A stretch of 64,000 nucleotides of DNA from Albugo candida. Lineage: Eukaryota. Made by a program: the position numbers and the translations under genes. Of the stretch, positions 9,147 through 46,115 are shown in pieces. The notes under the pieces are model-generated. The model was not told the DNA's origin. It saw nothing but the letters and a program-made list of their open reading frames with translations, and made no database searches. Within the stretch, counting starts at the first letter, position 1, and every line of letters begins with the position of its first letter. Where the stretch lies: assembly GCA_040437565.1 (NCBI GenBank), contig JBDOQK010000047.1, forward strand, positions 124,001-188,000, written 5' to 3'.

Positions 9147-12100
9147 ATGCAGAATTGGTCCTCACAGACTCCAATTGTGTCTCGCACGCATGACAAACAC
9201 AGCGCAGTATCGTCACCGCCGCATAGTCCTTACACATTCCCACGATTGACGAAAAAGTACATCCTCACTAGAGAATTGAACGTTCGAGTGCGCACGACTC
9301 GGAACGATGTCGCACCAGTGTATTTGTTGCCAGATGGATCTCTTGTATGCCGCAAGTTGCTTGCCAGAGACGATTGGATCCAAGATCATGAAAGGAAACA
9401 CTGTACTGTTTGTATGCAGCACTTTTTGCCATTTCGCCGACGTCATCACTGTCGAACGGTTGTTTTCTTTTTACTCTTCATACCTTAAGCACGGTCTGAT
9501 ACGTTTCCATTCCTAGTGTGGCGAAGTTGTTTGTAACGCGTGTTCGTATCATCGTCGTATCCACATAACTGATCTCAATGTCGGGTTTGTAACACGTTTG
9601 TGCACCTTTTGCATCATTCACGCTGGAAACGCATCTGTCCGAGTAAGCAAACCTAATTCGCATTCGGATGAGAATCAGGTTGATGAGCAAACAATCGTTC
9701 GTTCACCAATCCAGCGACTTTCGTCGAAACGCACCGAATCCGTTATGACTGACGGTAGCGTCGTGCAATTATGGCCTTTACCAGGTCACCAATCATTGGC
9801 TACATTTCAACCAGAAAAGTCCATTCCATTGGATCAAAATGAAACAAGGTCTCGCGCGCAATCAGCAGTTGAACTTCGTGTAACGAAGTTCAATCAAAAG
9901 AATTTATTTTCTCGTGTGCAACCCAAGCTTCCAGTAACGTCCAATCTTACTAATCCAATCTCACAATCACAGCGATTGGCTATGATCCACACCAAAATGT
10001 TATTAAACCCCAATCATGACCCGACGATGGAAACGCTCCTTTCCATCGTCGCGAAGACGTTAGCCTGTCCAGCGGCCCTTATTGGAAGCGTCGATGAAAA
10101 ATACCTATGGATCCATGCAAGCATTGGAATGGAATCGATTAGCAAGATGCCACGTGAAGATTTTGTATGCATACATCAGCTACGAAAGAGTGAAACGGTC
10201 TGGATTGTTCAGGACGCAACATGGGACAAACATTTCCATGCGGCCACTATAATGATCAAAGGTGCTCCCATTCGATTTTACGCAGGCGCTACATTAGCCG
10301 TTAAGGCACAGAGAATTGGAGTTGTCAGTGTGATGGATGATGAACCACACAAAGATATATCGAACACCATGAAAAGCACTTTGGAAGCTGTAGGGAAAAT
10401 CGCTTCTGAAGTGTTGGAGCAGCGTTTGCAATCTGCTTCATCCGAGAATGGAGGTAGTAGCACCAGAAATTCAATTGATGATTTTGACAGCTTGTTTGAT
10501 GAGAATCTTGAACACGCAGTAGCGAGTTCATTCGGATGTAATGACAGCAAAGCTGGACCCGGTCGCCCTTCCTGCATGACTATGTTTTTCAATCTCACTT
10601 CAGAAATGCAAGATGCCATTCACGAGTGTATGCGATTCATGAATGAATCGTTACGTCCACAGCCAGATTTAGTATGGAAACAGCGTCGAGATGCGGAAGA
10701 TGGAATCTGTGCTTCTTTTGAAGGTATCATCAGAACGGACAGCCACACTCAAATAAAGCTCTATAGAAATTCCTTTCGTGTGCTTGTTGGACCAGAAACG
10801 TTCACATTGCTAGAAATGATACAAAAATGTATGGATCCACGAGTGACTTTATCGAGTGACGATTGGTTTAGGCAGTTTTTCCGGGCCGAAGGGTATATTG
10901 ATGCAACATTACAAAATCGACACTACTTCTCACCACACACTTGGATGGATCATTTTTTATTAAAGCAAGATGTCAGCTCCGAAGAAGAAAAGTGCTGTAT
11001 TCTTACATACAAACGAGAATATCCGGACGGAAGTGCTATGATTGTGACTCTAGTCTATGACGAAGATGCAATGGAGAGTCCCATTCTCACATTCCTATTT
11101 GGCTGGCTTATCACATCACAGCAAAAGAAGAATATAAATGTAACGTGCCTCGTAGCTCAACAGTGTTCACAAAACGAAACTCATGATAAAAGAAGCGTCA
11201 ATGTCTCTGCCGCATGGTGTCTACATCTCCTTCAAATGTATAAAAGTTGCACTCATGTATCAATGCCTAATAAGAGCCTCCAACTTTCGAAATTAACGAG
11301 AGAGTCAAGACTCGCAACTGAAAGAGTGAGCGAGTCTAGTCGAGAAAGCGATATCGAGGAAGTTGTTTTCACTCGAAGTCGCCAAAGGGAAAGGAATGCC
11401 GGTGAAAATAAACGACAGCTTTTGCGCTGTTTGATAGATCAATCAATTTTCACGCAACAAATGCTGAAGGAACAGCGCAGGCNNNNNNNNNNNNNNNNNN
11501 NNNNNNNNNNNNNNNNNNNNNNNNNNNNNNNNNNNNNNNNNNNNNNNNNNNNNNNNNNNNNNNNNNNNNNNNNNNNNNNNNNGGACAGCCACACTCAAAT
11601 AAAGCTCTATAGAAATTCCTTTCGTGTGCTTGTTGGACCAGAAACGTTCACATTGCTAGAAATGATACAAAAATGTATGGATCCACGAGTGACTTTATCG
11701 AGTGACGATTGGTTTAGGCAGTTTTTCCGGGCCGAAGGGTATATTGATGCAACATTACAAAATCGACACTACTTCTCACCACACACTTGGATGGATCATT
11801 TTTTATTAAAGCAAGATGTCAGCTCCGAAGAAGAAAAGTGCTGTATTCTTACATACAAACGAGAATATCCGGACGGAAGTGCTATGATTGTGACTCTAGT
11901 CTATGACGAAGATGCAATGGAGAGTCCCATTCTCACATTCCTATTTGGCTGGCTTATCACATCACAGCAAAAGAAGAATATAAATGTAACGTGCCTCGTA
12001 GCTCAACAGTGTTCACAAAACGAAACTCATGATAAAAGAAGCGTCAATGTCTCTGCCGCATGGTGTCTACATCTCCTTCAAATGTATAAAAGTTGCACTC

Positions 12101-21337: not shown

Positions 21338-24300
21338 TCATGTCGATTCAAAGTGCGGTTCAACGGCTTCAGAGCTGGAGAACGAGTCGAATGATTTGGC
21401 TAATATCTCTTCTCGCTTCTCTGCTACTCGTTTCTGTCGAATGCGCTTCATTATTTCCTCCACGTCACCTTCTTTAAGTGAGACCAGATGTTGTTCTTCG
21501 TCGTCCTTCAAATGCGCCACAACGTCAGCCTCATCAATCCTCGCTTGTTTGCGACGATGAAGCTCCTCCATACGCTTTCGTGTCGCCTCCTCCCTTCGTA
21601 CTCGTCGTTCTTCGGCAATTCGTTTCCGTTCGTTATCGCGATCAGCACTTTGCAATAATTTCGCAAATGAAGTAATCACAGAAAAGAAGGAATTCGGACC
21701 ACAATCCGAACTTGTTGGATCTTCGCCAAAGAATCGAACTGTTTCTTCAAACATTTGCTTCATTTCGTCGAGACTTTGTCGTAACTCCTGCGAAATCCTG
21801 TCGGCATGTTCGGCAAATGGACCAATGATAGCTTGGAAACCATCATTTTCAGATATATCTGGTAATTTTGCATGCTGTTGTAGCTCAGAGACAATCAATT
21901 TGGCAGCTTTATGGATAACAGCATCACCTGCGTTCAGCATTTGCATGGTCAATCGGCTGGCTGCCTCCACAGACTTTAATTTCTCATCAAAATGGATGAT
22001 ACTTGGATCCTTAAGTCGAAGGATACTTGCAGTGTAGTTCAAGAGCGTGATGGAGTTATCACTTGCTTTCACTTGGCCTAATTTGAGGAGAGTGTCCAAA
22101 CGAAATGCTTTGGCACCACCACGAGCCGTCCCATCATTCAGCCGATTTCCAAGGGAGAGTATGATTTCAAAAATCTGGCCCAGATCGGCGCATGCTTTGA
22201 CTTCCTGACAAGCGGTACATACCGTTTCCATCAACTTCCTTTGATCTTCAGTGTACGAGTCGAATTGCCAGGTGGCGTGGATGGCTTGAAGTCGTGTTTT
22301 CAACCTTGGAACGTTTTGCATCTCGAAAAAGTATTGTTCTGCATCACCCAACAGCTTTGGATCGCCTTTGTAAGCTTTGATAGCGGTCAATTCGGTCTCA
22401 TTCGGGGCAAATTGCAATAAAGCCGCCACTCGTTCCGCGTAGAGTACCTCTTTATCAACTTGGAGAACTGCCTCACGAATACGATCGTACGGAAGCCGAA
22501 AACGTGCCAGCATGATTCCAATATTATTGGCTCTTTTGACATCAATTAGTGCAATCCGGGTGGGTGCTCTACGGCGACTGGTGGTTTTCCGAACCGCCTT
22601 CTTTGGTGGTGGTTCATTCACGAAAAGAGTTGTCAGTTTATCAATGTAATGAGCAATATTTTCGCTTTGAGACGACTTGTCTGACGGAGAAGGAGTCTTT
22701 TTCATATCACCATTTTTGGACGATATTGGTTGCAGTTTGTCCCAAATTGTGCCAGCGGTACATTCATTCGACAAAGTCTCCCAATAGAGGTTACGAAGCT
22801 TTGGTTTCGTTTTTATCGGAGTTTTTGTGGGTGATGGTGACTTTTTACGCAATGCGGGCGCCTTGGTGGTAACTATCTCATCAGGCAAGTCGAGATATTT
22901 GGCATCCAAACCTTCCGCAGCCATTCGAAGTTCCAATTGTTGACGAGGCATGCCCATTTTCTGCAGCTTGAAGTATTTGGCATATTCTGGATGGTCCCGT
23001 GCTCGATGCGCTGTCGTATCCGGCACAATCGCTCCGATAATGTTCCCATCGGCATCTACTGGCGCTTCAGGACTTGTCAAGATCTCCGCATCGAAACCTT
23101 CAGCCGACATCTTCAATTTGACTTGTTCCATTGGCATGCCCATACGAAGAAGCTTGAAGAATTTCGCATATTTTACGTGGCCTTTCACAGTCAGGTTGCT
23201 GGATGGGGGTACNNNNNNNNNNNNNNNNNNNNNNNNNNNNNNNNNNNNNNNNNNNNNNNNNNNNNNNNNNNNNNNNNNNNNNNNNNNNNNNNNNNNNNNN
23301 NNNNNNNNNNNNATATTCTGGATGGTCCCGTGCTCGATGCGCTGTCGTATCCGGCACAATCGCTCCGATAATGTTCCCATCGGCATCTACTGGCGCTTCA
23401 GGACTTGTCAAGATCTCCGCATCGAAACCTTCAGCCGACATCTTCAATTTGACTTGTTCCATTGGCATGCCCATACGAAGAAGCTTGAAGAATTTCGCAT
23501 ATTTTACGTGGCCTTTCACAGTCAGGTTGCTGGATGGGGGTACAGAGGAAGAAGTATCACGATTATGTTTGATCTCGTCTACCGGATTCCCAGTCTCATC
23601 CAATCGTGTCTCGGGAGAGTCCAAAAAGTCTCCGTTGACGCCATCAGCAAACGCTTTCATTTTGATCTGCTCTTTGGGCATACCAAGTTTCAGCAATTTG
23701 AAATATTTGGCGTACTTTTCATGCTCACAAACTTGGATTCCTTTCTTGTTGCCGTCAACACGATTCCCTTTTACATCCACACACGCATTTGGACACGTCA
23801 GAATGTTGGGGTCCAAGTCGTTACGCTTCATCTCTGCCACAATCTCGTCCATTGGTGTTCCATTTTGTAACATGTCAAAGTACTTTGCGTAATGTTCATG
23901 GTGTTTAGCTAGACGGAAAGCATTCTTACTGGAATCACTCGAGACATCAGGCTGTTCGATATCTGGGCTGTTCAGAAAAGCTGGATTCAAACCTTTCGCT
24001 TCGGCAGTTGCACGAGCTTGGTCCAAAGGCATTCCTGTCTTCAGCAATTTGGCATATTTGGCAATTTCAGGAACCTCCTTCATGAACGCGTTATCGCTTC
24101 CAGCTTTATCTATAACGACAATCTTTCCGTCCGAATCCACCATTGCATCAGGCGTTTGCAATATTGTGGAATCGACACCTTCCGCTTCAGCTTTCTGAGC
24201 TACGTGTTCTTGTGGCATACCCAACGCTAGCAACTTGAGATATTTAGCATACTTTGGATGATCTTTGGCTTTCACGTGATTGCCACAGGCAATACTTTCC

Positions 24301-26885
24301 ATCGACACGTGCGTTTTGGCCATTTCATTTTGAGTCTCTGTAGTCTTGAACGACACAAGACGATCTGGTGTCTCCAAAATTTCAGATTCAAAAGACTGGA
24401 CACCATCGACGCGCATCTGCATCTCAACATGTGACCGAGCCATTCCCAATTTCAGTAATTTGAAGTATTTGGCCAAATCCGGGTGATCTTCGGCAGCAAC
24501 CTGCATATTCTCATCTCGCTGCTGCGAAGAAGAGTGGTCTGAGTCAGTTTCTCCTTCCTCTCCATCGATCAAAGACTCTTCCTCGTAATCATGGTACAAT
24601 TCTTTATTTGAGAGGAGAATGATGGGTCCAGGATGATATTCAATCGATGGATTCTCACTCGTATATTTTTCGAGAAATTCGGTGTACCGATCACGCAATT
24701 GTAGTACGAGTTTACGGTCGTCGTATGACATTTTGAATTCCCGAACCTCTTCCACCGGAGCGAGAAGACTCACTTGCCGAATCAAACGCTCAGAAAGCGC
24801 CCACATCTCCTTACCAATGATGCGATCAGCTGGATAAAACAACAATTGCTGCAAGATCGATAGAAAATACTCTTGCAACTCGTTATCCGATGCTGCACTC
24901 TGCATCAACCGATCAAAAATACTCTGATGAGAAGACAAATCTGTGGTCTCGTATATGGTATCTTTACGATCGTCTTCCATGAATGCTTCAAACACTTCAA
25001 TCTGTTTCTCCATATTATCCAATTGGGAGCGTAATTGCTCAACACTGTTGTCGGAATTTGTCGTCTCGCCGTTGGAATCACTCACAATGGATCCTCGTGC
25101 TCCATTGCTATGGTTTTCTTCGCGTGGAGTACCGACTCCGTGTCCGACACTCTGACTGGATCCTCCTGTCGTCACTGGAGTCACATGTCCCGGAGAAACA
25201 ACGACATCCTTTGCAACAGGTCCGAAACCACTTTCTACTTTGATGGCTGGTGGAGTCATGATTGCTGGTGTTCTGGGCACAGAAGCGGAATGCAGATGCT
25301 CTTGTGGGGTACGACATCCTTCCATGACACTCTCACACGAGTTTCGACGGTGATTCGTTTGTCGCTGAACAGCAACTGATTTCGCTCGAACTTGTTCAAA
25401 GTATCCCGCCATTTTCAGCGCCATGAAATCGCCTCGAATCGCCAGACGATCTTCCAGCCGAATTGCTTTATTGACAATGATATTGATAAAGCTCAAGACA
25501 TCTTCTTTGAATGCCAATGAATACCGCGCCGATTTGAGTGCATCACGCAAACAACTGAATCGAATGGCTTCGCCTTTGGCTTCCTGGTAGTGATCGAATG
25601 CTTCAATTACAGCTCCGTGACCAGCGGCGCTATTATAACAAATAATTCCCAAGAATTGCAATGTCTGCTTCTTCAATTCAACATCATCCGTATGAAAACA
25701 CAACGCGACTTTCTTGACAAGACCAGGTATACTTATTAAGGCCTCGATTCCAGTTGTGAAATGAGTCAATGATCGTAAGACGCGAAGCAATACTTTGCAG
25801 AAGTTGACTGCTTTATCGAATTTATTCATTTCGATGGAATACGGAGAAGGGTCAGGCAATTTCATCGTCAAGTAATCCAATCCAAAATGATCTAGAAATG
25901 AACCAGCCCATTCGATTGAGTTGGTTGATATCTTGATGACCAGCTGTTCCAACTCTTTCACTCCTTTGGAGTCCCATTTCAACTCGACCAAGCTTTCTGC
26001 CATTCGTGCGGCTTCAGCGATATTCAATTGTGGTTTATCTTCATCATTTTCATGTTGTTGAGCGCTACAGCAAGAGAATGCAATCAATATTCAGTCTCAT
26101 CTTTCAGCAAGGCGAACGTACCACCACACGATGTTCCATTTATTATCGATGGGCTCAATGCGTACAAGTTCGTCCATTACGTCGTCTGGAACGCGGCGTT
26201 TGATCAGCAAATCTCGATACATTTCATTCACCGTTTCTTCTTTTGGCATTGGCGGTCTTTCTTTGATTTTAGCGGAATTGCTCGTTGGAATTCGATTCGC
26301 AAAGAATCCTCGAAAATATTGCAATTTCTCATTGAAATTCGAATCTTGCGCTGGATTTAATGAGAAAAAATCGGATATCCTAGATTTTGAGTGGCTTTCC
26401 TGATTGGCTGAAAAATTTGGTGGGTTTCTTCGAAATTCTAACCGTAGCGGCCAAACGCTCGGATCCTTTTGCATCTGCATTGCATAATTGATAATTTGCT
26501 CGAAAGGAAGGTCGTCTAAATGTAACTCGTGCATCATTTGTAGTATGTCCCCAATTTTTACTCGACCACTTGATTCAACGTACCCTTTAGTGGTTCCATC
26601 TAAAAGGCGAAAACCACGAACAATTGCACCGCGTTGTGGTTTGCCCTTTTCAACGTGTCGAGCCTGTAGATCAATTCCTAATGGACCGGATGTTGGGACA
26701 TCGATTGTGAAGATTAATGGACGCTCTTTTGTGACTCGTGGATCATTGGAATAGATGGATCGACGTCTCGAAGAAGTGTGGAGGCCAAACGATAAACTAC
26801 TGGGCAATGCGCTCAGTGACGAACGTGTTGATTCTTTCTCTCTGGGATTGGGATTCGTGTTTAAAGAGCTTCGTCGTCTCCACAT
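21338..26885 (-). CDS. Formin: PDZ, GBD/FH3, seven CCDC53-like repeats, FH2; intron 26065-26121; 231-nt artefactual duplication at the gap
   Basis: FH2 motifs KLRNLYW..GTIW, KRANNIGIML, LGNRLNDGTARGGAKAFRLDTLLKL, FFGED; PDZ GPLGIDL..GRVKIGDIL. Confidence 0.92.
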
Positions 26886-39177: not shown

Positions 39178-39217
39178 TTGTGCTGGCCAATAAGATCAAC
39201 CGGATTCAACAATTATT

Positions 39218-41636
39218 ATGACCACGAATGGCTGGCTCATTGGTCTTCAATTGGCATCCAAAGCGTCTCGAACATTGTCACGTTCCAACTTTCCATCTTT
39301 ATGCAGTGCAAAGAATCATCGAGTAGGAAGCATGCTGCCAAGCATTCTGCAATATTCGCCTTTAACGTCATATCACGGAGATCGATTGTACTCAAACGAG
39401 ACGAAAACGGATACACACTCTCATACTCAAATTGCACATGAGATCAGTGAATCAATTCGATTGGTATCGACAACGGCTTTGCTCCCAAAGACCATGAATG
39501 ATATCCGAATACTACTACGAACCTGTCAAGAAGCACATTTGCAACAGAGCGCAATACCACTTTGCAAGCTTATTGTTCAAAAAAAGATACTAGATGACCG
39601 TGGATTGATTCTGCAGACGATGCGAATAGCACGAGGCGTTGGTTCCAAGGAATTGATTCTCGAATTGATTGCATTATTACAAAAGCATCCCACGGATGAA
39701 ATATGGAAAGAACGAGGTGTTGTTGCAGGACTCATCCACTCTTGCATACGTCTAGAACTGTTTGAAGCTGGTTTACAAGCACATGAGATCTTGAAGAAAC
39801 ATGGAATCGAAATTGACAAAAGTGTAAAAGCCGAAATGCTCTGTTTATACGTAATAAAGAATCCAACTGCAAACATGAGTAGAATCCTCGAATCTGACCA
39901 AGTTTCCGACTTTTCCTCCAAGCAGCTGCAAATGATTGTGAGAGAGCTTCTGCGATACGAAAACAGCGATGGAGCCATTCGCCTTATCGAGCACTGCAAT
40001 GTGGATCTCAATGTGGCGCGATACACAAAGCTCATTGACGTTTGCTATCGAAAAGGAGATATTGAAAACGCGACAAAGTATGCAAAAGCTTTCTACCACT
40101 CCAATGCTTTTGATTCGAGTCTCAAATCTTACAATGCAGTGATACAAGTACATGGAAGAACGGGGCAACTTGCAAAAGCGTTTCAACTCTACGAGAAAAT
40201 GAAGAAACTCGGAGTCGCACCCAATGTGATCACACTCAAACGCATGTTGCACGCCGTTTACTTCGGAAGATATCCGTCANNNNNNNNNNNNNNNNNNNNN
40301 NNNNNNNNNNNNNNNNNNNNNNNNNNNNNNNNNNNNNNNNNNNNNNNNNNNNNNNNNNNNNNNNNNNNNNNNNNNNNNNTCCTCCAAGCAGCTGCAAATG
40401 ATTGTGAGAGAGCTTCTGCGATACGAAAACAGCGATGGAGCCATTCGCCTTATCGAGCACTGCAATGTGGATCTCAATGTGGCGCGATACACAAAGCTCA
40501 TTGACGTTTGCTATCGAAAAGGAGATATTGAAAACGCGACAAAGTATGCAAAAGCTTTCTACCACTCCAATGCTTTTGATTCGAGTCTCAAATCTTACAA
40601 TGCAGTGATACAAGTACATGGAAGAACGGGGCAACTTGCAAAAGCGTTTCAACTCTACGAGAAAATGAAGAAACTCGGAGTCGCACCCAATGTGATCACA
40701 CTCAAACGCATGTTGCACGCCGTTTACTTCGGAAGATATCCGTCATTTGACGTAAAAATAACCAAATATACGCTGTTGGGATTAGGAGCAATGGGTGCGG
40801 GTTTGGTGCCTTTCATGCAGCTACAGGAACATTATCTGACGACGCTGTTCATTGCTAGCGTTTTGGGATCTATGAGTCTGGCGATTTACATGGTACCAAA
40901 TGGTGTCATGCGTTCTCTCTATCCGGATGTCACAAAGCCTCGAAAAGGAGACATCATCAATGCGTTCTTTCGTCGTTTAAGTGAGGAAGGTCATGCTGGA
41001 CGTGCAATGTATCTTTGGCGAGAAATGATAAAATGGAATGTTGCTCCCGACGCTTCCATCACTGATATTTTCGTCCGCGTCTGTATCCGTAAACGACACC
41101 CGGAATACGCATACAACACGCTCTACAGCGCTTTGGCAGAAACATCATTGGAGAAACAGACATTTCGATTATCAGCTTCTACCACCACTCACCTCATCCA
41201 TTCTTTGATCTCACAATCGCGAACTCAAATGGCGTCCGAGGTGTTTCGTACAGCGAGAGAACAAAAGACATTTACGAAGATATTTCATGAGGAACACACA
41301 ACACATTGGTACGAATTAAGCAAGATTCCGTCCGTCTGCGCGACAAGCTTTTTCATCTCACAAATACTCGCAACAATTCGCGAGAAATTCGCTTCTGATG
41401 CTTCAGTGATTCCACGCGTAGAGTTTACCGTCTGGAATGCAATACAAGTGTTGGATCATTTGGATGAGCATGAACCCGCAATTCGCGCACTCTTCTCAAT
41501 CGATCAACTCACTCTAAAACGACAAAATGCGAGACCGTCTCACCTGTTGGAATCCAGCAATATGGACTCTGTGAAATTGACGGCATCTCCTCAGCAGCTC
41601 CGTTGCTTTATTTCAGCACATCCAAACACGCAATGA
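39218..41636 (+). CDS. Pentatricopeptide-repeat protein, probably mitochondrial, with an internal hydrophobic hairpin; artefactual duplication at the gap
   Basis: SYNAVIQVHGRTGQLAKAFQLYEKMKKLGVAPNVIT and AMYLWREMIKWNVAPD PPR motifs. Confidence 0.85.
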
Positions 41637-41690: not shown

Positions 41691-43907
41691 TTAGATAGTC
41701 AGCGATGTCGAACTCGCGTTATCAAATCGCAAGCTCAACTGCTTTTTCTTTAGAAATTCGATCACGCTCATGAGTTGTGGATCTCTTGGATCATTCATTC
41801 CACTTCGTTCCAGGTATCGTATGACGTCTCGGAATGACTTTAGCTGCTCTTTTGCAGTGAGCAACGGAATTGCTTCTTCCTCACCCAATTCTCCGACACC
41901 GTTATGTTCCATTCCAAGCGCATCGGGGATCTTGAATTCTTCATCATTCACTTGTGGATCCTCAATGATGTCTTCATTCAGTCGTTTATGTATATCGTTC
42001 TCCCATCGCGAGTTTACAAGGACTTTGGTATTTACAATTCCGCTCAACTGGAGACAATACAACAAATTCCACAATTCTTCTTCAACGNNNNNNNNNNNNN
42101 NNNNNNNNNNNNNNNNNNNNNNNNNNNNNNNNNNNNNNNNNNNNNNNNNNNNNNNNNNNNNNNNNNNNNNNNNNNNNNNNNNNNNNNTTGCTTCTTCCTC
42201 ACCCAATTCTCCGACACCGTTATGTTCCATTCCAAGCGCATCGGGGATCTTAAATTCTTCATCATTCACTTGTGGATCCTCAATGATGTCTTCATTCAGT
42301 CGTTTATGTATATCGTTCTCCCATCGCGAGTTTACAAGGACTTTGGTATTTACAATTCCGCTCAACTGGAGACAATACAACAAATTCCACAATTCTTCTT
42401 CAACGTTTTTCTCGTCCGTTGGCTCCAATTTACCGTCAAATTCAAATGGATAATTAAGTCCAAGCGGTTTCCACGCATTCAAAATGACTTCTCGAGGCAC
42501 TTGATGCCACGATTCTGTGATCCATCGCATCGCTTGCAATTGTGTGACACGATATATATCCGACATTCCATCTTCCAAGTGATCAATCGCCAATGTCAAA
42601 TGCTTCAAACGATACTTTCCCTTGAACGCTGCCATGATACCACCACGCATTGGCTGAACTTTCATTCCAAGCTGAGGAGACACCATAATCACACGAACAT
42701 TTGTCAATTGAACGCAACCAAGTACATGTGATGGAGCATTATCCATCAACAACAAGACATTCCTATGCGCACTGGCCATCCTTGCGTTAAAGTCACGAAG
42801 CCATTGTTGGAAAATGAACACAGTCATACGAGATTTACTACTGCACATATACTGATACCCGGCTTGTGCTGCCGGCATATTGCGCATGGTTCGAGGTGGA
42901 AGAATATTGCCAATGATATAAGGATCCATCAAGTCACTTGCATCCGCATTCACCGCAAGTAATACTGTCAGTCGTGCTTCATCCACCAACATTGCTTGTG
43001 CGTCATCTCCATGGACCAATTTACTCGGAGGCGCTCGATAGAAAAGCCCGCTTTCATCGACAGTATACAAATCATTGGAAGCATAATTTCGCAATATCAT
43101 TTGTATCTGTTCCAATGGAAGATCAGCAGACACAGGAGGCAATGCATACGCCGGAGAATCATCAACACCACTCAGAATCATACTTGGACCTTCCACGAAA
43201 CTCGGCGGGCCTTCATGATTACTCAATCCAACATGAGGGGAACTACTTTGTGTGGAAATGCTCGTTGATACCGGTAATCGGTCTGTCAAATTGGGTCCTC
43301 GACGTATGAGACCGTGACGCGTCTTGAATGACGCCAACCAGCCATTCGAAAACCCCAACTTTCCATCTAAACCCATTTGTTTTGCTAATTCACGTCCTTT
43401 ATTCTTGATCATATCGCCTGTGATATTGCCTTTTGCTTGTCGTTCCATCACCCAATTCGCTAACACTTGGTCAAAATGAGCGTGGCGTGTGGGTCGTATG
43501 GTCTTGCGATCTGCACCCAACGCGCCACCCAAACTATCGCGAAATAGATGTGCGTTTTTCAGGATATTTGACATTGTTGGCTGTGTCGGCGCTTTTTTCA
43601 GATTGAATTCCAATTTCGCCCAACGACATAAATCTTTTTGTGTGATTTTTGGTGTTGCACGATGTTTCTCACAAATTCTCCGCTTTTGTTCGATTGTCAA
43701 GTTTCCATTTCCGTCGCTTTTGCGCTTACGAGAAATCCCGTTTTTGTATTCGGTTGGGTCCAAAGAGAGGTCAGTGGGGCCCGAAACGGGTGATGACCCT
43801 AACACCGCATCTTGAGTCAGCGATTCCAATCCCAACGTCACATTTTCAGCTGTTAATGAAGGACCTAGTGGCACGGAAGTATTAGGACTTGAAGGTTTCT
43901 GCATCAT
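41691..43907 (-). CDS. pogo/Tigger transposase-derived CENP-B-like protein (two HTH domains plus DDE_1), probably domesticated
   Basis: LTIEQKRRIC..QKDL..WAK..F..P.QPTMSNILK; FSNGWLASFKTRHG; VDESGLFY; LLLMDNAPSH; QPMRGGI in place of QPxD; acidic tail. Confidence 0.85.
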   Translation of the reverse strand: MMQKPSSPNTSVPLGPSLTAENVTLGLESLTQDAVLGSSPVSGPTDLSLDPTEYKNGISRKRKSDGNGNLTIEQKRRICEKHRATPKITQKDLCRWAKLEFNLKKAPTQPTMSNILKNAHLFRDSLGGALGADRKTIRPTRHAHFDQVLANWVMERQAKGNITGDMIKNKGRELAKQMGLDGKLGFSNGWLASFKTRHGLIRRGPNLTDRLPVSTSISTQSSSPHVGLSNHEGPPSFVEGPSMILSGVDDSPAYALPPVSADLPLEQIQMILRNYASNDLYTVDESGLFYRAPPSKLVHGDDAQAMLVDEARLTVLLAVNADASDLMDPYIIGNILPPRTMRNMPAAQAGYQYMCSSKSRMTVFIFQQWLRDFNARMASAHRNVLLLMDNAPSHVLGCVQLTNVRVIMVSPQLGMKVQPMRGGIMAAFKGKYRLKHLTLAIDHLEDGMSDIYRVTQLQAMRWITESWHQVPREVILNAWKPLGLNYPFEFDGKLEPTDEKNVEEELWNLLYCLQLSGIVNTKVLVNSRWENDIHKRLNEDIIEDPQVNDEEFKIPDALGMEHNGVGELGEEEAXXXXXXXXXXXXXXXXXXXXXXXXXXXXXXXXXXVEEELWNLLYCLQLSGIVNTKVLVNSRWENDIHKRLNEDIIEDPQVNDEEFKIPDALGMEHNGVGELGEEEAIPLLTAKEQLKSFRDVIRYLERSGMNDPRDPQLMSVIEFLKKKQLSLRFDNASSTSLTI

Positions 43908-45095
43908 CGCGATGCGTAATAAACTTTGACGAGGTACAAGATTTCGCAACAGCGCCGTCGCGCAATTTTCAGTTTGATTTTGGCTATCACAAAAGGGGGA
44001 GGGGGAGGAAGAATGGAGGTGCGCGCGCCACATTTAATTTTATATTCCACCAATCAGCGGGTGGCAAAACAATTCTCAACCAGTCAAATGATAGCATGCT
44101 CATCATCGTTGATTGTTTGAAGTGATATCACCCTTCCTGTTGACCGATTCTAAATCCTTCTATAACAAGAGTAGTGTCACGCACATTAAATTATCTCTTG
44201 TTGACTATGATCCAATTTCGCGTTGAAGGATCACGGAATACGAGAGGAAGAAAAGATGGACGCTTCTATCGATCCTTCTCATTCATTCGAAATCAAACGT
44301 TCCACCGACGAGGTTTTCGTCAAAAGCTTCACGGGCATCCTCAACAAACGCGGATACAATCTAGAAGACGCGAATGCTTCAGACTCCAACTCGGTATCGA
44401 TCTTGAGCACGACCAGCCTAAATTCCAATTTTTCTTCAATCATCGCAAGCTTGCGTGAACCAATTCACGGACAGACCTCACTCCATCTCGCTTGTCGTAA
44501 AGGGGATCATCAAGTAGTTGACGCATTGATACGAAATGAATGTATTACGCAACTCATCGATCTGACGGACAATAATGGCAACACAGCATTGCATTTCGCT
44601 GTTTCGGCTCTCCGTTATCGGAAAAGCGAAGAAATCGTACAAAAGCTTTTGGATGCCGGTGCTTCGGTTCATGCTCGAAATTCCAAGTCACTTACACCAA
44701 TTGCGGTACACNNNNNNNNNNNNNNNNNNNNNNNNNNNNNNNNNNNNNNNNNNNNNNNNNNNNNNNNNNNNNNNNNNNNNNNNNNNNNNNNNNNNNNNNN
44801 NNNNNNNNNNNGTTTGATTTTGGCTATCACAAAAGGGGGAGGGGGAGGAAGAATGGAGGTGCGCGCGCCACATTTAATTTTATATTCCACCAATCAGCGG
44901 GTGGCAAAACAATTCTCAACCAGTCAAATGATAGCATGCTCATCATCGTTGATTGTTTGAAGTGATATCACCCTTCCTGTTGACCGATTCTAAATCCTTC
45001 TATAACAAGAGTAGTGTCACGCACATTAAATTATCTCTTGTTGACTATGATCCAATTTCGCGTTGAAGGATCACGGAATACGAGAGGAAGAAAAG

Positions 45096-46115
45096 ATGGA
45101 CGCTTCTATCGATCCTTCTCATTCATTCGAAATCAAACGTTCCACCGACGAGGTTTTCGTCAAAAGCTTCACGGGCATCCTCAACAAACGCGGATACAAT
45201 CTAGAAGACGCGAATGCTTCAGACTCCAACTCGGTATCGATCTTGAGCACGACCAGCCTAAATTCCAATTTTTCTTCAATCATCGCAAGCTTGCGTGAAC
45301 CAATTCACGGACAGACCTCACTCCATCTCGCTTGTCGTAAAGGGGATCATCAAGTAGTTGACGCATTGATACGAAATGAATGTATTACGCAACTCATCGA
45401 TCTGACGGACAATAATGGCAACACAGCATTGCATTTCGCTGTTTCGGCTCTCCGTTATCGGAAAAGCGAAGAAATCGTACAAAAGCTTTTGGATGCCGGT
45501 GCTTCGGTTCATGCTCGAAATTCCAAGTCACTTACACCAATTGCGGTACACGTTCTTACTCTAAAAGTGGATAATGCTGTTATTTTAGTGAAATTGCTGA
45601 AGAAGGGAGCAGCCGTAGAGACCGAAATTGAAGGAGATTCCATATTACACGTAGCTGTACGGCGACAGTTGAAATGTGTGGCTTCCACACTTGTCGAATA
45701 TGGAGCTTCTTTTATCTCTCTGAATCATTTGGGTCTAATGGCCTTTGAAATTGCTTCAGTACCCGTGCGTCAAGCGATGCTCTCTAGTATTGTAAGCATT
45801 CAACCATTTCTTTCAATAAATCAGCGGTTCAAATGTATGCGCTGCAACAGGGAATTGCTGACGCGTATTCGTCGAGTGTCATTGGCTTTAAATCGCTTAC
45901 TTCGACTTCCCGTTCGCGATCACAAGCATAACTGTTATCGATGTGGATTAATATATTGTGGTAAATGTGTCTGGTGTCGCCGCTTAACGCTTGGAATACC
46001 GATATTTTTACAGCGGGCTGAATCGGATGCAAAGTTGTGTAAATTACCAATCTGCTCGTTCTGTGATGCAACCTTATGGGAGCACCGCAATCGAAACAAA
46101 TTGGATCTATCCTGA
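45096..46115 (+). CDS. Ankyrin-repeat plus FYVE-like finger protein, paralog of 3148-4188 (the 5' copy at 44256-44711 is an assembly duplicate)
   Basis: QTSLHLACRKG, GNTALHFAV, LTPIAVHVLTLKVD; CMRC..KHNCYRCGLIYCGKC..ICSFC. Confidence 0.85.
   Translation: MDASIDPSHSFEIKRSTDEVFVKSFTGILNKRGYNLEDANASDSNSVSILSTTSLNSNFSSIIASLREPIHGQTSLHLACRKGDHQVVDALIRNECITQLIDLTDNNGNTALHFAVSALRYRKSEEIVQKLLDAGASVHARNSKSLTPIAVHVLTLKVDNAVILVKLLKKGAAVETEIEGDSILHVAVRRQLKCVASTLVEYGASFISLNHLGLMAFEIASVPVRQAMLSSIVSIQPFLSINQRFKCMRCNRELLTRIRRVSLALNRLLRLPVRDHKHNCYRCGLIYCGKCVWCRRLTLGIPIFLQRAESDAKLCKLPICSFCDATLWEHRNRNKLDLS

What the first reader, a model, noticed from the sequence alone, without database searches (positions are those of the whole stretch)
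22880..24490. Formin whose polyproline FH1 is replaced by seven WASHC3/CCDC53-like repeats
Seen: between FH3 and FH2 there is no polyproline tract. After removing the gap duplicate there are seven repeats of roughly [D/E]HPxYAKYFKLLKLGMPxxQxxxKMxAEGxDxxxLxxP. Known: this resembles the conserved C-terminal motif of WASH complex subunit CCDC53/WASHC3 (DPRYARYLKMVQVGVP..IRNKMISEGLDPDLL..PD), and FH1 normally delivers profilin-actin to FH2. Inference: the repeats may be an alternative actin-delivery or endosomal/WASH-related module, implying a non-canonical formin mechanism.
Basis: partly seen in the sequence, partly recalled or inferred. Interest (0 to 1): 0.72.

Follow-up and report, generated by a model that had tools for sequence, protein, structure and literature searches.

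The report
Oomycete formin with WASHC3-like repeats
A white-rust (Albugo) formin gene carries seven copies of the small helical end-domain of WASH-complex subunit CCDC53 where formins normally have their proline-rich profilin-binding region; many related stramenopile formins share this layout, and no paper found here explains it.

Summary
A minus-strand gene (ATG 26885, stop 21338-21340, one 57-nt intron) encodes a 1719-aa Diaphanous-type formin: GBD/FH3, seven ~50-aa repeats, FH2, DAD-like tail. The 100-N gap is an unmerged contig overlap (231 nt identical on both sides). An independent assembly (P0001) reads straight through with seven repeats.

Each repeat alone passes Pfam's CCDC53 cut-off, but only on the C-terminal third of the profile. 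The protein shares a domain with WASHC3 and is not a WASHC3 orthologue. There is no polyproline tract.

The layout is common in stramenopiles: 165 of 181 FH2 proteins gathered here carry 2-11 repeats just before FH2. Of those, 156 lack any run of five prolines. All 14 proteins with polyproline but no repeats are non-stramenopile formins.

AlphaFold2 gives confident mini-domains (two helices plus a short third) joined by low-confidence linkers. No solved structure matched.

What the repeats do is not shown. My best guess (about 0.4) is that they stand in for FH1 and recruit polymerisable actin. Rivals: a partner-docking module shared with WASH, or a spacer.

Databases already annotate the architecture, but my ten paper searches found no description of it. 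I rate it a new variant of a known kind, interest about 0.6.

The parts
21338..26885 (-). Whole formin gene. ATG at 26885-26883, exon 1 26885-26122, intron 26121-26065, exon 2 26064-21341, stop at 21340-21338. The 331 bases 23213-23543 (gap plus duplicated overlap) must be removed to read it. Product is 1719 aa.
   Evidence: The N-terminus and the junction residues VW[C]AQQ match the Phytophthora palmivora orthologue P0002.
26065..26121 (-). 57-nt GT..AG intron
   Evidence: for the sequence. The spliced frame is open.
24759..26249 (-). GBD/FH3 (DID-like) region
   Evidence: Drf_FH3 E 2.1e-19. Drf_GBD E 7.4e-7, 29.3 bits, just under the cut-off of 30.1. A weak GBD start lies in exon 1 (E 0.019).
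24330..24491 (-). Repeat R1 (has MA in place of MP and a 3-residue insertion)
24105..24266 (-). Repeat R2
23919..24080 (-). Repeat R3
23745..23906 (-). Repeat R4
23568..23729 (-). Repeat R5
   Evidence: folded
23213..23543 (.). Assembly artefact: 100 N (23213-23312) plus a 231-nt exact second copy (23313-23543) of 22982-23212. It carries a duplicate print of R6 at 23355-23516.
23024..23185 (-). Repeat R6
   Evidence: Alone it gives Pfam CCDC53 E 3.2e-10. AlphaFold2 model.
22838..22999 (-). Repeat R7, followed by the short linker ...KKSPSPTKTPIKTKPKLRNLYWE, which has no polyproline
21653..22825 (-). FH2 domain
   Evidence: PF02181 E 4.8e-88, profile positions 2-371 of 372
21428..21469 (-). DAD-like motif GDVEEIMKRIRQKR, conserved in oomycete orthologues
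   Evidence: The likeness to the DAD consensus is recalled, not tested.

Best explanation
Shown: this is an intact Diaphanous-type formin of an Albugo species. Its order is GBD/FH3, then seven domains, then FH2, then a DAD-like tail. The FH1 position is filled by seven independently folded, ~50-residue domains homologous to the C-terminal domain of WASH-complex subunit CCDC53/WASHC3. The domains are joined by flexible linkers and there is no polyproline.

Inferred mechanism: the array does the job of FH1. Each domain shows a conserved lysine-rich face. I infer that each reversibly binds polymerisation-competent actin, either directly or through profilin or another monomer carrier. The flexible string would then raise the local monomer concentration at the FH2-capped barbed end.

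Inferred history: the array arose upstream of an ordinary FH1 in an early stramenopile. Polyproline then became dispensable and decayed in most lineages, including Albugo.

The confidence given is for the inferred mechanism. For the anatomy and the homology I hold about 0.95.
For: Position:
- In the first tally, repeats lie before FH2 in 101 of 105 FH2 proteins.
- Across the 165 repeat-bearing FH2 proteins of the final set, the median distance from the last repeat to the start of FH2 is 19 aa (quartiles -5, 19, 29).

Copy number and layout resemble FH1 tracks:
- 2-11 copies, median 6.
- The two-repeat AlphaFold2 model has domains at pLDDT 82-93, linkers below 50 and pTM 0.38, so no fixed mutual orientation.

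Near-exclusive with polyproline:
- Among 181 FH2 proteins: repeats without a P5 run 156, repeats with P5 9, no repeats with P5 14, neither 2.
- Between the last repeat and FH2, the longest proline run is 2 or less in 138 of 164 proteins and 5 or more in 7 of 164.

Intermediates exist:
- Pythium orthologues keep one P5-P8 tract flush to KPKLRNLYW.
- P0127 has repeats followed by a Drf_FH1 region.

The array recurs in different formin frames:
- GBD-FH3 type, FYVE...PAH_ZNF598 type, PH type and diatom formins.

Conserved polar positions:
- In 1039 unique repeat instances from 224 proteins, Lys is 94% at position 8, 89% at position 11, 81% at position 1 and 75% at position 25. This fits a binding face rather than a spacer.

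Context of the domain's other home:
- It also sits in an actin-nucleation-promoting complex, WASH. That role is described in passages of PMC8047104.

FH2 looks whole.
Against: - No result here shows binding of the repeats to actin, profilin or anything else.
- The exclusivity table is confounded. Most repeat-bearing proteins were fetched because they have repeats. All 14 proteins with polyproline but no repeats, which serve as the controls, are non-stramenopile formins (plants, a fish, a fungus, a green alga).
- Some members keep polyproline, so the two modules can coexist and may do different jobs.
- The domain also occurs outside formins, in MYND-finger proteins and in WASHC3 itself. It is therefore not tied to FH2.
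- No fold match to any known actin- or profilin-binding domain was found.
Confidence: 0.4

Rival explanations
1. Docking module shared with the WASH complex. The CCDC53-C domain binds some common ligand that is not an actin monomer, for example an endosomal or retromer-linked factor, capping protein, tubulin or acidic membrane. The array gives the formin multivalent attachment to that ligand and so sets where the formin works, not how fast it elongates.
For: - The domain's only named home is a subunit of the endosomal WASH complex.
- One formin class combines it with a FYVE finger (Pfam family name).
- It also occurs in non-formin MYND proteins.
- It has a conserved lysine-rich surface.
- Polyproline coexists with it in some members.
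Against: - This reading does not explain why the array almost always abuts FH2 (median 19 aa).
- It does not explain why polyproline is missing in 156 of 165 repeat-bearing formins.
- No partner is known. The passages I saw in the WASH papers give CCDC53 only a coiled-coil assembly role.
Confidence: 0.3
2. Structured spacer or regulator. The beads-on-a-string array only sets the reach and stiffness between the dimerisation region and FH2, or tunes DID-DAD autoinhibition, and binds nothing specific.
For: - Variable copy number of 2-11.
- Flexible linkers.
- Nothing here demonstrates a ligand.
Against: - Strong conservation of polar positions that I take, untested, to be exposed, across 1039 repeat instances and across oomycetes, diatoms and a chrysophyte. 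That is not expected of a spacer.
- The same domain is kept as a single copy in WASHC3-family proteins (Pfam model).
Confidence: 0.15
3. UBA-like or villin-headpiece-like small helical domain that binds ubiquitin or F-actin. This lead came from my own reading of the L-K-M-G-M-P...G-L-D pattern.
For: The only hint is a summed weak UBA score on P0075 (E 2.5e-6 for the whole protein, with no single stretch passing).
Against: - 0 of 51 single repeats hit UBA or any headpiece family at E up to 10 (HMMER filters drop most weak matches).
- No UBA or headpiece chain appears among the listed Foldseek or VIA-align rows.
- The predicted third helix is only 4 residues long.
Confidence: 0.05
4. Artefact: the repeats or the missing FH1 come from mis-assembly or a wrong gene model.
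For: The gene holds an N gap with duplicated flanks, and the assembly is fragmented, with 14 gaps in 64 kb.
Against: - A single open frame runs from 26064 to 21341 once the overlap is merged.
- The independent assembly P0001 is identical in length.
- The Albugo laibachii orthologue and 40-odd other oomycete orthologues share the same architecture.
Confidence: 0.02

Closest known systems
Diaphanous-related formins (mDia/Bni1 type: GBD/FH3-DD-CC-FH1-FH2-DAD)
   Same: GBD/FH3 lies upstream, a full FH2 downstream (E 4.8e-88) and a DAD-like basic motif at the C-terminus. The order of parts is the same.
   Different: The FH1 slot holds no polyproline. It holds seven folded CCDC53-C-type domains instead.
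WASHC3 / CCDC53, small subunit of the WASH complex (Pfam PF10152)
   Same: The ~40-residue C-terminal motif. Every repeat matches the C-terminal third of the profile, between positions 93 and 147 of 147, above the curated cut-off.
   Different: There is no match to profile positions 1-92. According to the passages read in PMC8047104, the coiled coil is how CCDC53 assembles into the complex. Here there are seven copies instead of one, embedded in a formin.
Other stramenopile formins with CCDC53-type repeats (oomycete DRF-type orthologues, FYVE-formins, diatom and chrysophyte formins)
   Same: The same array directly before FH2. 45 of 61 FH2 relatives and 35 of 43 repeat relatives carry both PF10152 and PF02181. 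JGI even names one 'Formin Homology 2 Domain/Subunit CCDC53 of WASH complex'.
   Different: Copy number differs: 8 in most Phytophthora and Pythium orthologues, 7 here. Linker motifs differ. Pythium keeps a short polyproline tract that Albugo has lost.
Tandem actin-monomer-binding arrays next to nucleators (WH2 repeats of Spire/Cordon-bleu; WH2-like tails of some formins). Recalled, for analogy only.
   Same: Several small monomer-binding modules on a flexible chain beside a filament-end machine. This is what the best explanation proposes.
   Different: No sequence or fold likeness was found or tested here. Actin binding of the CCDC53-C domain is not shown.

Membership tests
Formin (FH2 protein) | Complete FH2 domain | tested here: met
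   PF02181 E 4.8e-88, profile positions 2-371 of 372
Formin (canonical FH1-FH2 core) | Proline-rich FH1 with polyproline tracks N-terminal to FH2 | tested here: not met
   No proline run of 3 or more upstream of FH2. The linker reads KKSPSPTKTPIKTKPK.
Diaphanous-related formin | N-terminal GBD/FH3 (DID) region | tested here: met
   Drf_FH3 E 2.1e-19, above cut-off. Drf_GBD 29.3 bits, just under the cut-off of 30.1.
Diaphanous-related formin | C-terminal DAD that binds DID | tested here: inconclusive
   A conserved GD[VA]xxI[MV]xKIRxKR motif is present in 7 of 7 orthologues inspected. Its likeness to DAD is recalled, and binding was not tested.
WASHC3/CCDC53 (PF10152) | Conserved C-terminal motif | tested here: met
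   Seven copies. 51 of 51 single repeats from this and related proteins pass. R6 scores 41.1 bits against a cut-off of 24.6.
WASHC3/CCDC53 (PF10152) | N-terminal coiled coil that builds the WASH/FAM21/CCDC53 trimer | tested here: not met
   The listed best stretches cover profile positions 93-147 only, and no part of the protein matches positions 1-92. It is not a WASHC3 orthologue.
UBA domain | Sequence match to PF00627 / three-helix UBA fold | tested here: inconclusive
   0 of 51 repeats hit UBA at E up to 10. No UBA chain appears in the listed fold-search rows. Small domains give weak scores, so absence is not proof.
Villin headpiece / WH2 (known small actin binders) | Sequence or fold match | tested here: inconclusive
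   No such family among the Pfam hits and none in the listed fold-search rows. No profile-profile comparison could be made, because I held no alignment of those families.

The most novel reading that the evidence does not exclude
The conserved C-terminal domain of WASHC3/CCDC53, for which I found no described function, is an unrecognised actin-monomer (or profilin-actin) recruiting module. Stramenopiles multiplied it into arrays that took over from polyproline FH1 in most of their formins. This would be a second, non-proline way of feeding FH2. It would also imply that the single copy in the WASH complex feeds monomers to WASH/Arp2/3 on endosomes in animals and amoebae.
Probability: 0.3. Interest if true: 0.85.

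Novelty: new variant of a known kind. Interest (0 to 1): 0.6.

Why it matters
FH1-profilin delivery is the textbook way formins speed up filament growth. A large group of stramenopile formins from oomycetes, diatoms and a chrysophyte has dropped polyproline and put arrays of a folded domain in its place. That points to a different feeding or targeting mechanism.

It also gives the first handle on what the conserved end of WASHC3 does in WASH complexes, including the human one. I found no solved structure of the domain and no paper describing it in formins.

The proposal can be tested directly with recombinant fragments.

Tried and rejected
Complex prediction. I ran one R6 repeat against a canonical actin plus ATP. 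The actin was an intron-free 376-aa ORF from metagenome locus L069, the medoid of 27 such ORFs. The verdict was 'no answer': score 0.16 against a mark of 0.34, and the controls were not run. This is neither evidence for nor against binding. The actin was a stand-in of unknown organism, and the tool did not use my alignments. Profilin could not be tried because I held no profilin sequence.

Routes to a same-species actin or profilin that failed:
- No whole genome is held for this window.
- No actin or profilin gene lies in the window.
- The control genomes of the genome search are all prokaryotes.

Fold searches:
- Foldseek against the PDB, single-repeat model: best E 5.4.
- Foldseek against the PDB, two-repeat model: best E 2.6.
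- VIA-align wide: best Z 3.0, rmsd 2.5 over 38 residues. The top rows are mixed ribosomal, transposase and recombinase helix-turn-helix pieces, with nothing standing out.

PDB sequence searches with profiles A1 and A2: best E 0.4 and 0.052, both ribosomal uL18 and judged chance.

UBA or headpiece idea: no support.

A real WASHC3 for side-by-side comparison:
- A search limited to 63-203 aa returned 4 short unnamed fragments.
- The ESM Atlas returned only CCDC53-labelled clusters at 0.85-0.88.
The taxa of the unnamed profile hits therefore remain unknown.

Earlier notes of this scan: none found.

Literature:
- 'ccdc53'+'formin'+'fh2' gave 0 papers.
- 'ccdc53'+'formin' gave 59 papers, 25 listed, all on WASH biology.
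- 'pf10152' gave 1 paper, where it is a row in a Pfam enrichment table for Peronospora effusa.
- 'duf2360' gave 1 unrelated paper.
- The formin surveys PMC2386819 and PMC5628938 (passages only) cover Phytophthora and diatom formins. They do not mention these repeats in what I saw. In one search, PMC2386819 cannot contain 'ccdc53'. 'wash' occurs 0 times in PMC5628938.

Correction: my notebook says 19 truncated FH2. A recount of that output gives 16 of 35.
Full report
**What is there**

The finding lies inside one long minus-strand gene. Two large open frames run stop to stop, 26090-23100 and 23386-21338. They are interrupted only by a run of 100 N at 23213-23312.

The 231 bases right of the gap (23313-23543) are identical to the 231 bases left of it (22982-23212). 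This is an unmerged contig overlap. Removing 23213-23543 keeps the frame, since 231 nt is 77 codons.

The gene model is as follows:
- ATG at 26885-26883.
- A 57-nt GT..AG intron at 26121-26065.
- One open reading of 1719 codons ending at the stop 21340-21338.

From the residues AQQHEN onward, the merged protein has exactly the length of P0001, a protein from an independent public assembly. They differ by 6 substitutions and no indel over 1464 residues. Five of the six substitutions fall in repeats R2-R4 or the linkers beside them.

The same flush duplication occurs at 8 of the 14 gaps in the window. It is a habit of this assembly. Seven repeats, not eight, is therefore the right count.

**Domain order**

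Pfam gives, from N to C:

| Part | Pfam result |
|---|---|
| Drf_GBD | E 7.4e-7, 29.3 bits, just under the cut-off of 30.1; a weak start lies in exon 1 |
| Drf_FH3 | E 2.1e-19 |
| CCDC53, upstream piece | E 8.9e-50, six stretches |
| CCDC53, downstream piece | E 9.7e-20, two stretches |
| FH2 | E 4.8e-88, profile positions 2-371 of 372 |

The C-terminal tail holds GDVEEIMKRIRQKR, conserved in all 7 orthologues I looked at. From memory it resembles a DAD core plus basic patch.

There is no polyproline. The only proline run of 3 or more in the two large ORF pieces is a PPP inside the FH2 part. The stretch between R7 and FH2 reads KKSPSPTKTPIKTKPKLRNLYWE.

**The repeats**

Seven units sit at the coordinates listed under parts. 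They share [KR][DE]HPxYAKYFKLLKxGMPxxQxxxKMxAEGxDxxxLxxP[DE] and are 25-45% identical to R1. At the DNA level they are 61-74% identical, so the duplications are old.

In this orthologue group, most units also continue into a short P[DE]xx[VL][DN]xxG motif.

AlphaFold2 results:
- R6 with a 51-sequence alignment: helices at 6-16 and 21-31, a short helix at 35-38, mean pLDDT 78.
- R5-R6 with 26 sequences: two such domains at pLDDT 82-93, linkers under 50 at residues 57-67 and 128-136, pTM 0.38. This is beads on a flexible string.

No solved structure resembles the domain convincingly. No PDB chain carries it by sequence.

**Is it CCDC53-like?**

Yes, but only in part. Each single repeat passes Pfam's curated cut-off for PF10152. 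R6 alone gives E 3.2e-10 and 41.1 bits against 24.6. All 51 of 51 repeats from this and related proteims hit the family.

The matches cover only the C-terminal third of the profile. The best stretches fall between positions 93 and 147 of 147. The N-terminal coiled coil is absent. That coiled coil is the part through which CCDC53 enters the WASH complex, according to passages of PMC8047104 and of the 2026 bioRxiv preprint 10.64898/2026.09.18.752629.

The protein therefore shares a domain with WASHC3 and is not a WASHC3.

I could not see the Pfam seed alignment. The statement 'homologous to bona fide WASHC3' rests on the curated family model, not on a side-by-side alignment with a named WASHC3.

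**Organism and relatives**

The FH2 region is 90% identical to a formin of Albugo laibachii Nc14 (P0193) and 47-57% identical to orthologues across oomycetes. These include Phytophthora, Pythium, Lagenidium, Bremia, Peronospora, Plasmopara, Saprolegnia and Aphanomyces. The window therefore comes from an Albugo species other than that strain.

- Of 61 FH2 relatives, 45 carry PF10152 as well. The other 16 are 13 plant formins, one green alga (Mesostigma), one fungus, one fish and one MMETSP transcript. None of these 16 carries PF10152.
- Of 43 relatives found with the repeat region, 35 carry FH2. They include a diatom (Thalassiosira exigua) and a chrysophyte.

The architectures seen differ:
- GBD-FH3-repeats-FH2, as here.
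- FYVE-repeats-FH2-PAH_ZNF598.
- PH-bearing forms.
- MYND-finger proteins with repeats and no FH2.

A profile of the seven repeats found 2065 cluster representatives at E up to 1e-3 among 1.84 billion proteins, and 136 at E up to 1e-30. The best 150 each have 2-11 matched stretches.

Of the 35 longest hits that my first quick scan called FH2-less, 16 in fact end in a truncated FH2 and 3 have FH3/GBD upstream. These look like cut formins.

**The FH1 question**

| | No run of 5 prolines within 500 aa before FH2 | At least one such run |
|---|---|---|
| Repeats present | 156 | 9 |
| No repeats | 2 | 14 |

Other measures:
- Copy number has a median of 6 (range 2-11), and the last repeat ends a median 19 residues before FH2.
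- Between the last repeat and FH2, the longest proline run is 1 in 85 proteins, 2 in 53, 3 in 15, 4 in 4, 5 in 4, and 6 or more in 3, out of 164.
- Seven of the nine proteins with both repeats and a P5 run are oomycete orthologues (P. insidiosum, P. oligandrum and unnamed ones) that keep a single P5-P8 tract flush against KPKLRNLYW.
- P0127 has repeats followed by a Pfam Drf_FH1 region.

These intermediates suggest that the array was added upstream of FH1 and that FH1 then decayed. Albugo is at the far end of that decay.

Caveats apply. The set is ascertained largely through the repeat. The 14 proteins with polyproline but no repeats are all non-stramenopile. From the passages I saw, Pruyne 2017 (PMC5628938) describes heterokont PTEN-formins as PTP-C2-FH1-FH2. 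Stramenopiles therefore do have some FH1 formins, which my searches did not sample.

**Mechanism**

Nothing here measures function.

Several features fit a module that does what FH1 does, namely concentrating polymerisable actin at the FH2-bound barbed end:
- The constant position against FH2.
- The FH1-like copy numbers.
- The flexible linkers.
- The loss of polyproline.
- The recurrence in unrelated formin frames.
- The strongly conserved lysines: 94%, 89%, 81% and 75% at profile positions 8, 11, 1 and 25 in 1039 unique repeats from 224 proteins.

I put this reading at about 0.4.

The main rival, at about 0.3, is a docking domain for a ligand shared with the WASH complex. The FYVE and MYND contexts and the coexistence with polyproline in some members favour it. 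A pure spacer (0.15) fits poorly with the conserved polar residues. A UBA-like or headpiece-like reading, which I raised from the motif itself, found no support.

**Novelty**

Public annotation already shows the domain pair. Precomputed Pfam lists both families, and one JGI product name spells them out.

I found no paper that describes or explains it:
- 0 papers hold 'ccdc53', 'formin' and 'fh2' together.
- The 25 listed of 59 papers with 'ccdc53' and 'formin' are WASH studies.
- PF10152 appears in one enrichment table.
- The two broad formin surveys that included Phytophthora and diatoms do not mention it in the passages I read.

Subscription journals and bioRxiv supplements were not searchable, so a description there cannot be excluded. 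I rate it a new variant of a known kind.

Noticed in passing
window gaps at 11483, 23213, 35755, 40280, 44712, 46749, 48595, 57849: 8 of the 14 100-N gaps are flanked by exact duplicates (38-746 nt) that sit flush on both sides. These are unmerged contig overlaps. ORFs crossing these gaps are printed partly twice.
   Followed up: yes
window 43972-45551: The two ankyrin-repeat ORFs (44211-44711 and 45051-46112), which have the same Pfam coordinates, are at least partly one gene printed twice. A 740-nt duplication lies across the gap at 44712-44811.
   Followed up: partly
window 39194-41633: A PPR-repeat gene is split by the gap at 40280-40379, with a 366-nt flush duplicate.
   Followed up: partly
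window 42188-44033 (-): An ORF with a DDE_1 endonuclease domain and a Tc5-type HTH, that is, a pogo/Tc5-like transposase. A gap with imperfect flank repeats lies next to it.
   Followed up: no
window 22838-24491 (-), linkers after R2, R4, R5, R6; P0002, P0193-P0225: In oomycete orthologues of this formin, most repeats are followed by a conserved P[DE]xx[VL][DN]xxG[NK]x[VI] motif. It is modelled with moderate confidence as a short turn or strand pair. It lies beyond the Pfam CCDC53 model and gives weak sub-threshold PASTA hits.
   Followed up: partly
P0035, P0036, P0037, P0039, P0147: Oomycetes, including Albugo candida, also have ~780-aa proteins with three CCDC53-type repeats and no FH2. Four of the five carry an N-terminal MYND finger by Pfam, and the fifth (P0036) is named MYND-type only by its source.
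   Followed up: no
window 26122-26885 (-), exon 1: The first ~250 residues (MWRRRSSL...) are conserved with the Phytophthora palmivora orthologue. Apart from a weak GBD start, they match no Pfam family at E up to 1.
   Followed up: no
merged protein residues 869-987 (R2-R4) vs P0001: 5 of the 6 amino-acid differences between this window and the independent assembly P0001 fall in repeats R2-R4 or the linkers beside them.
   Followed up: no
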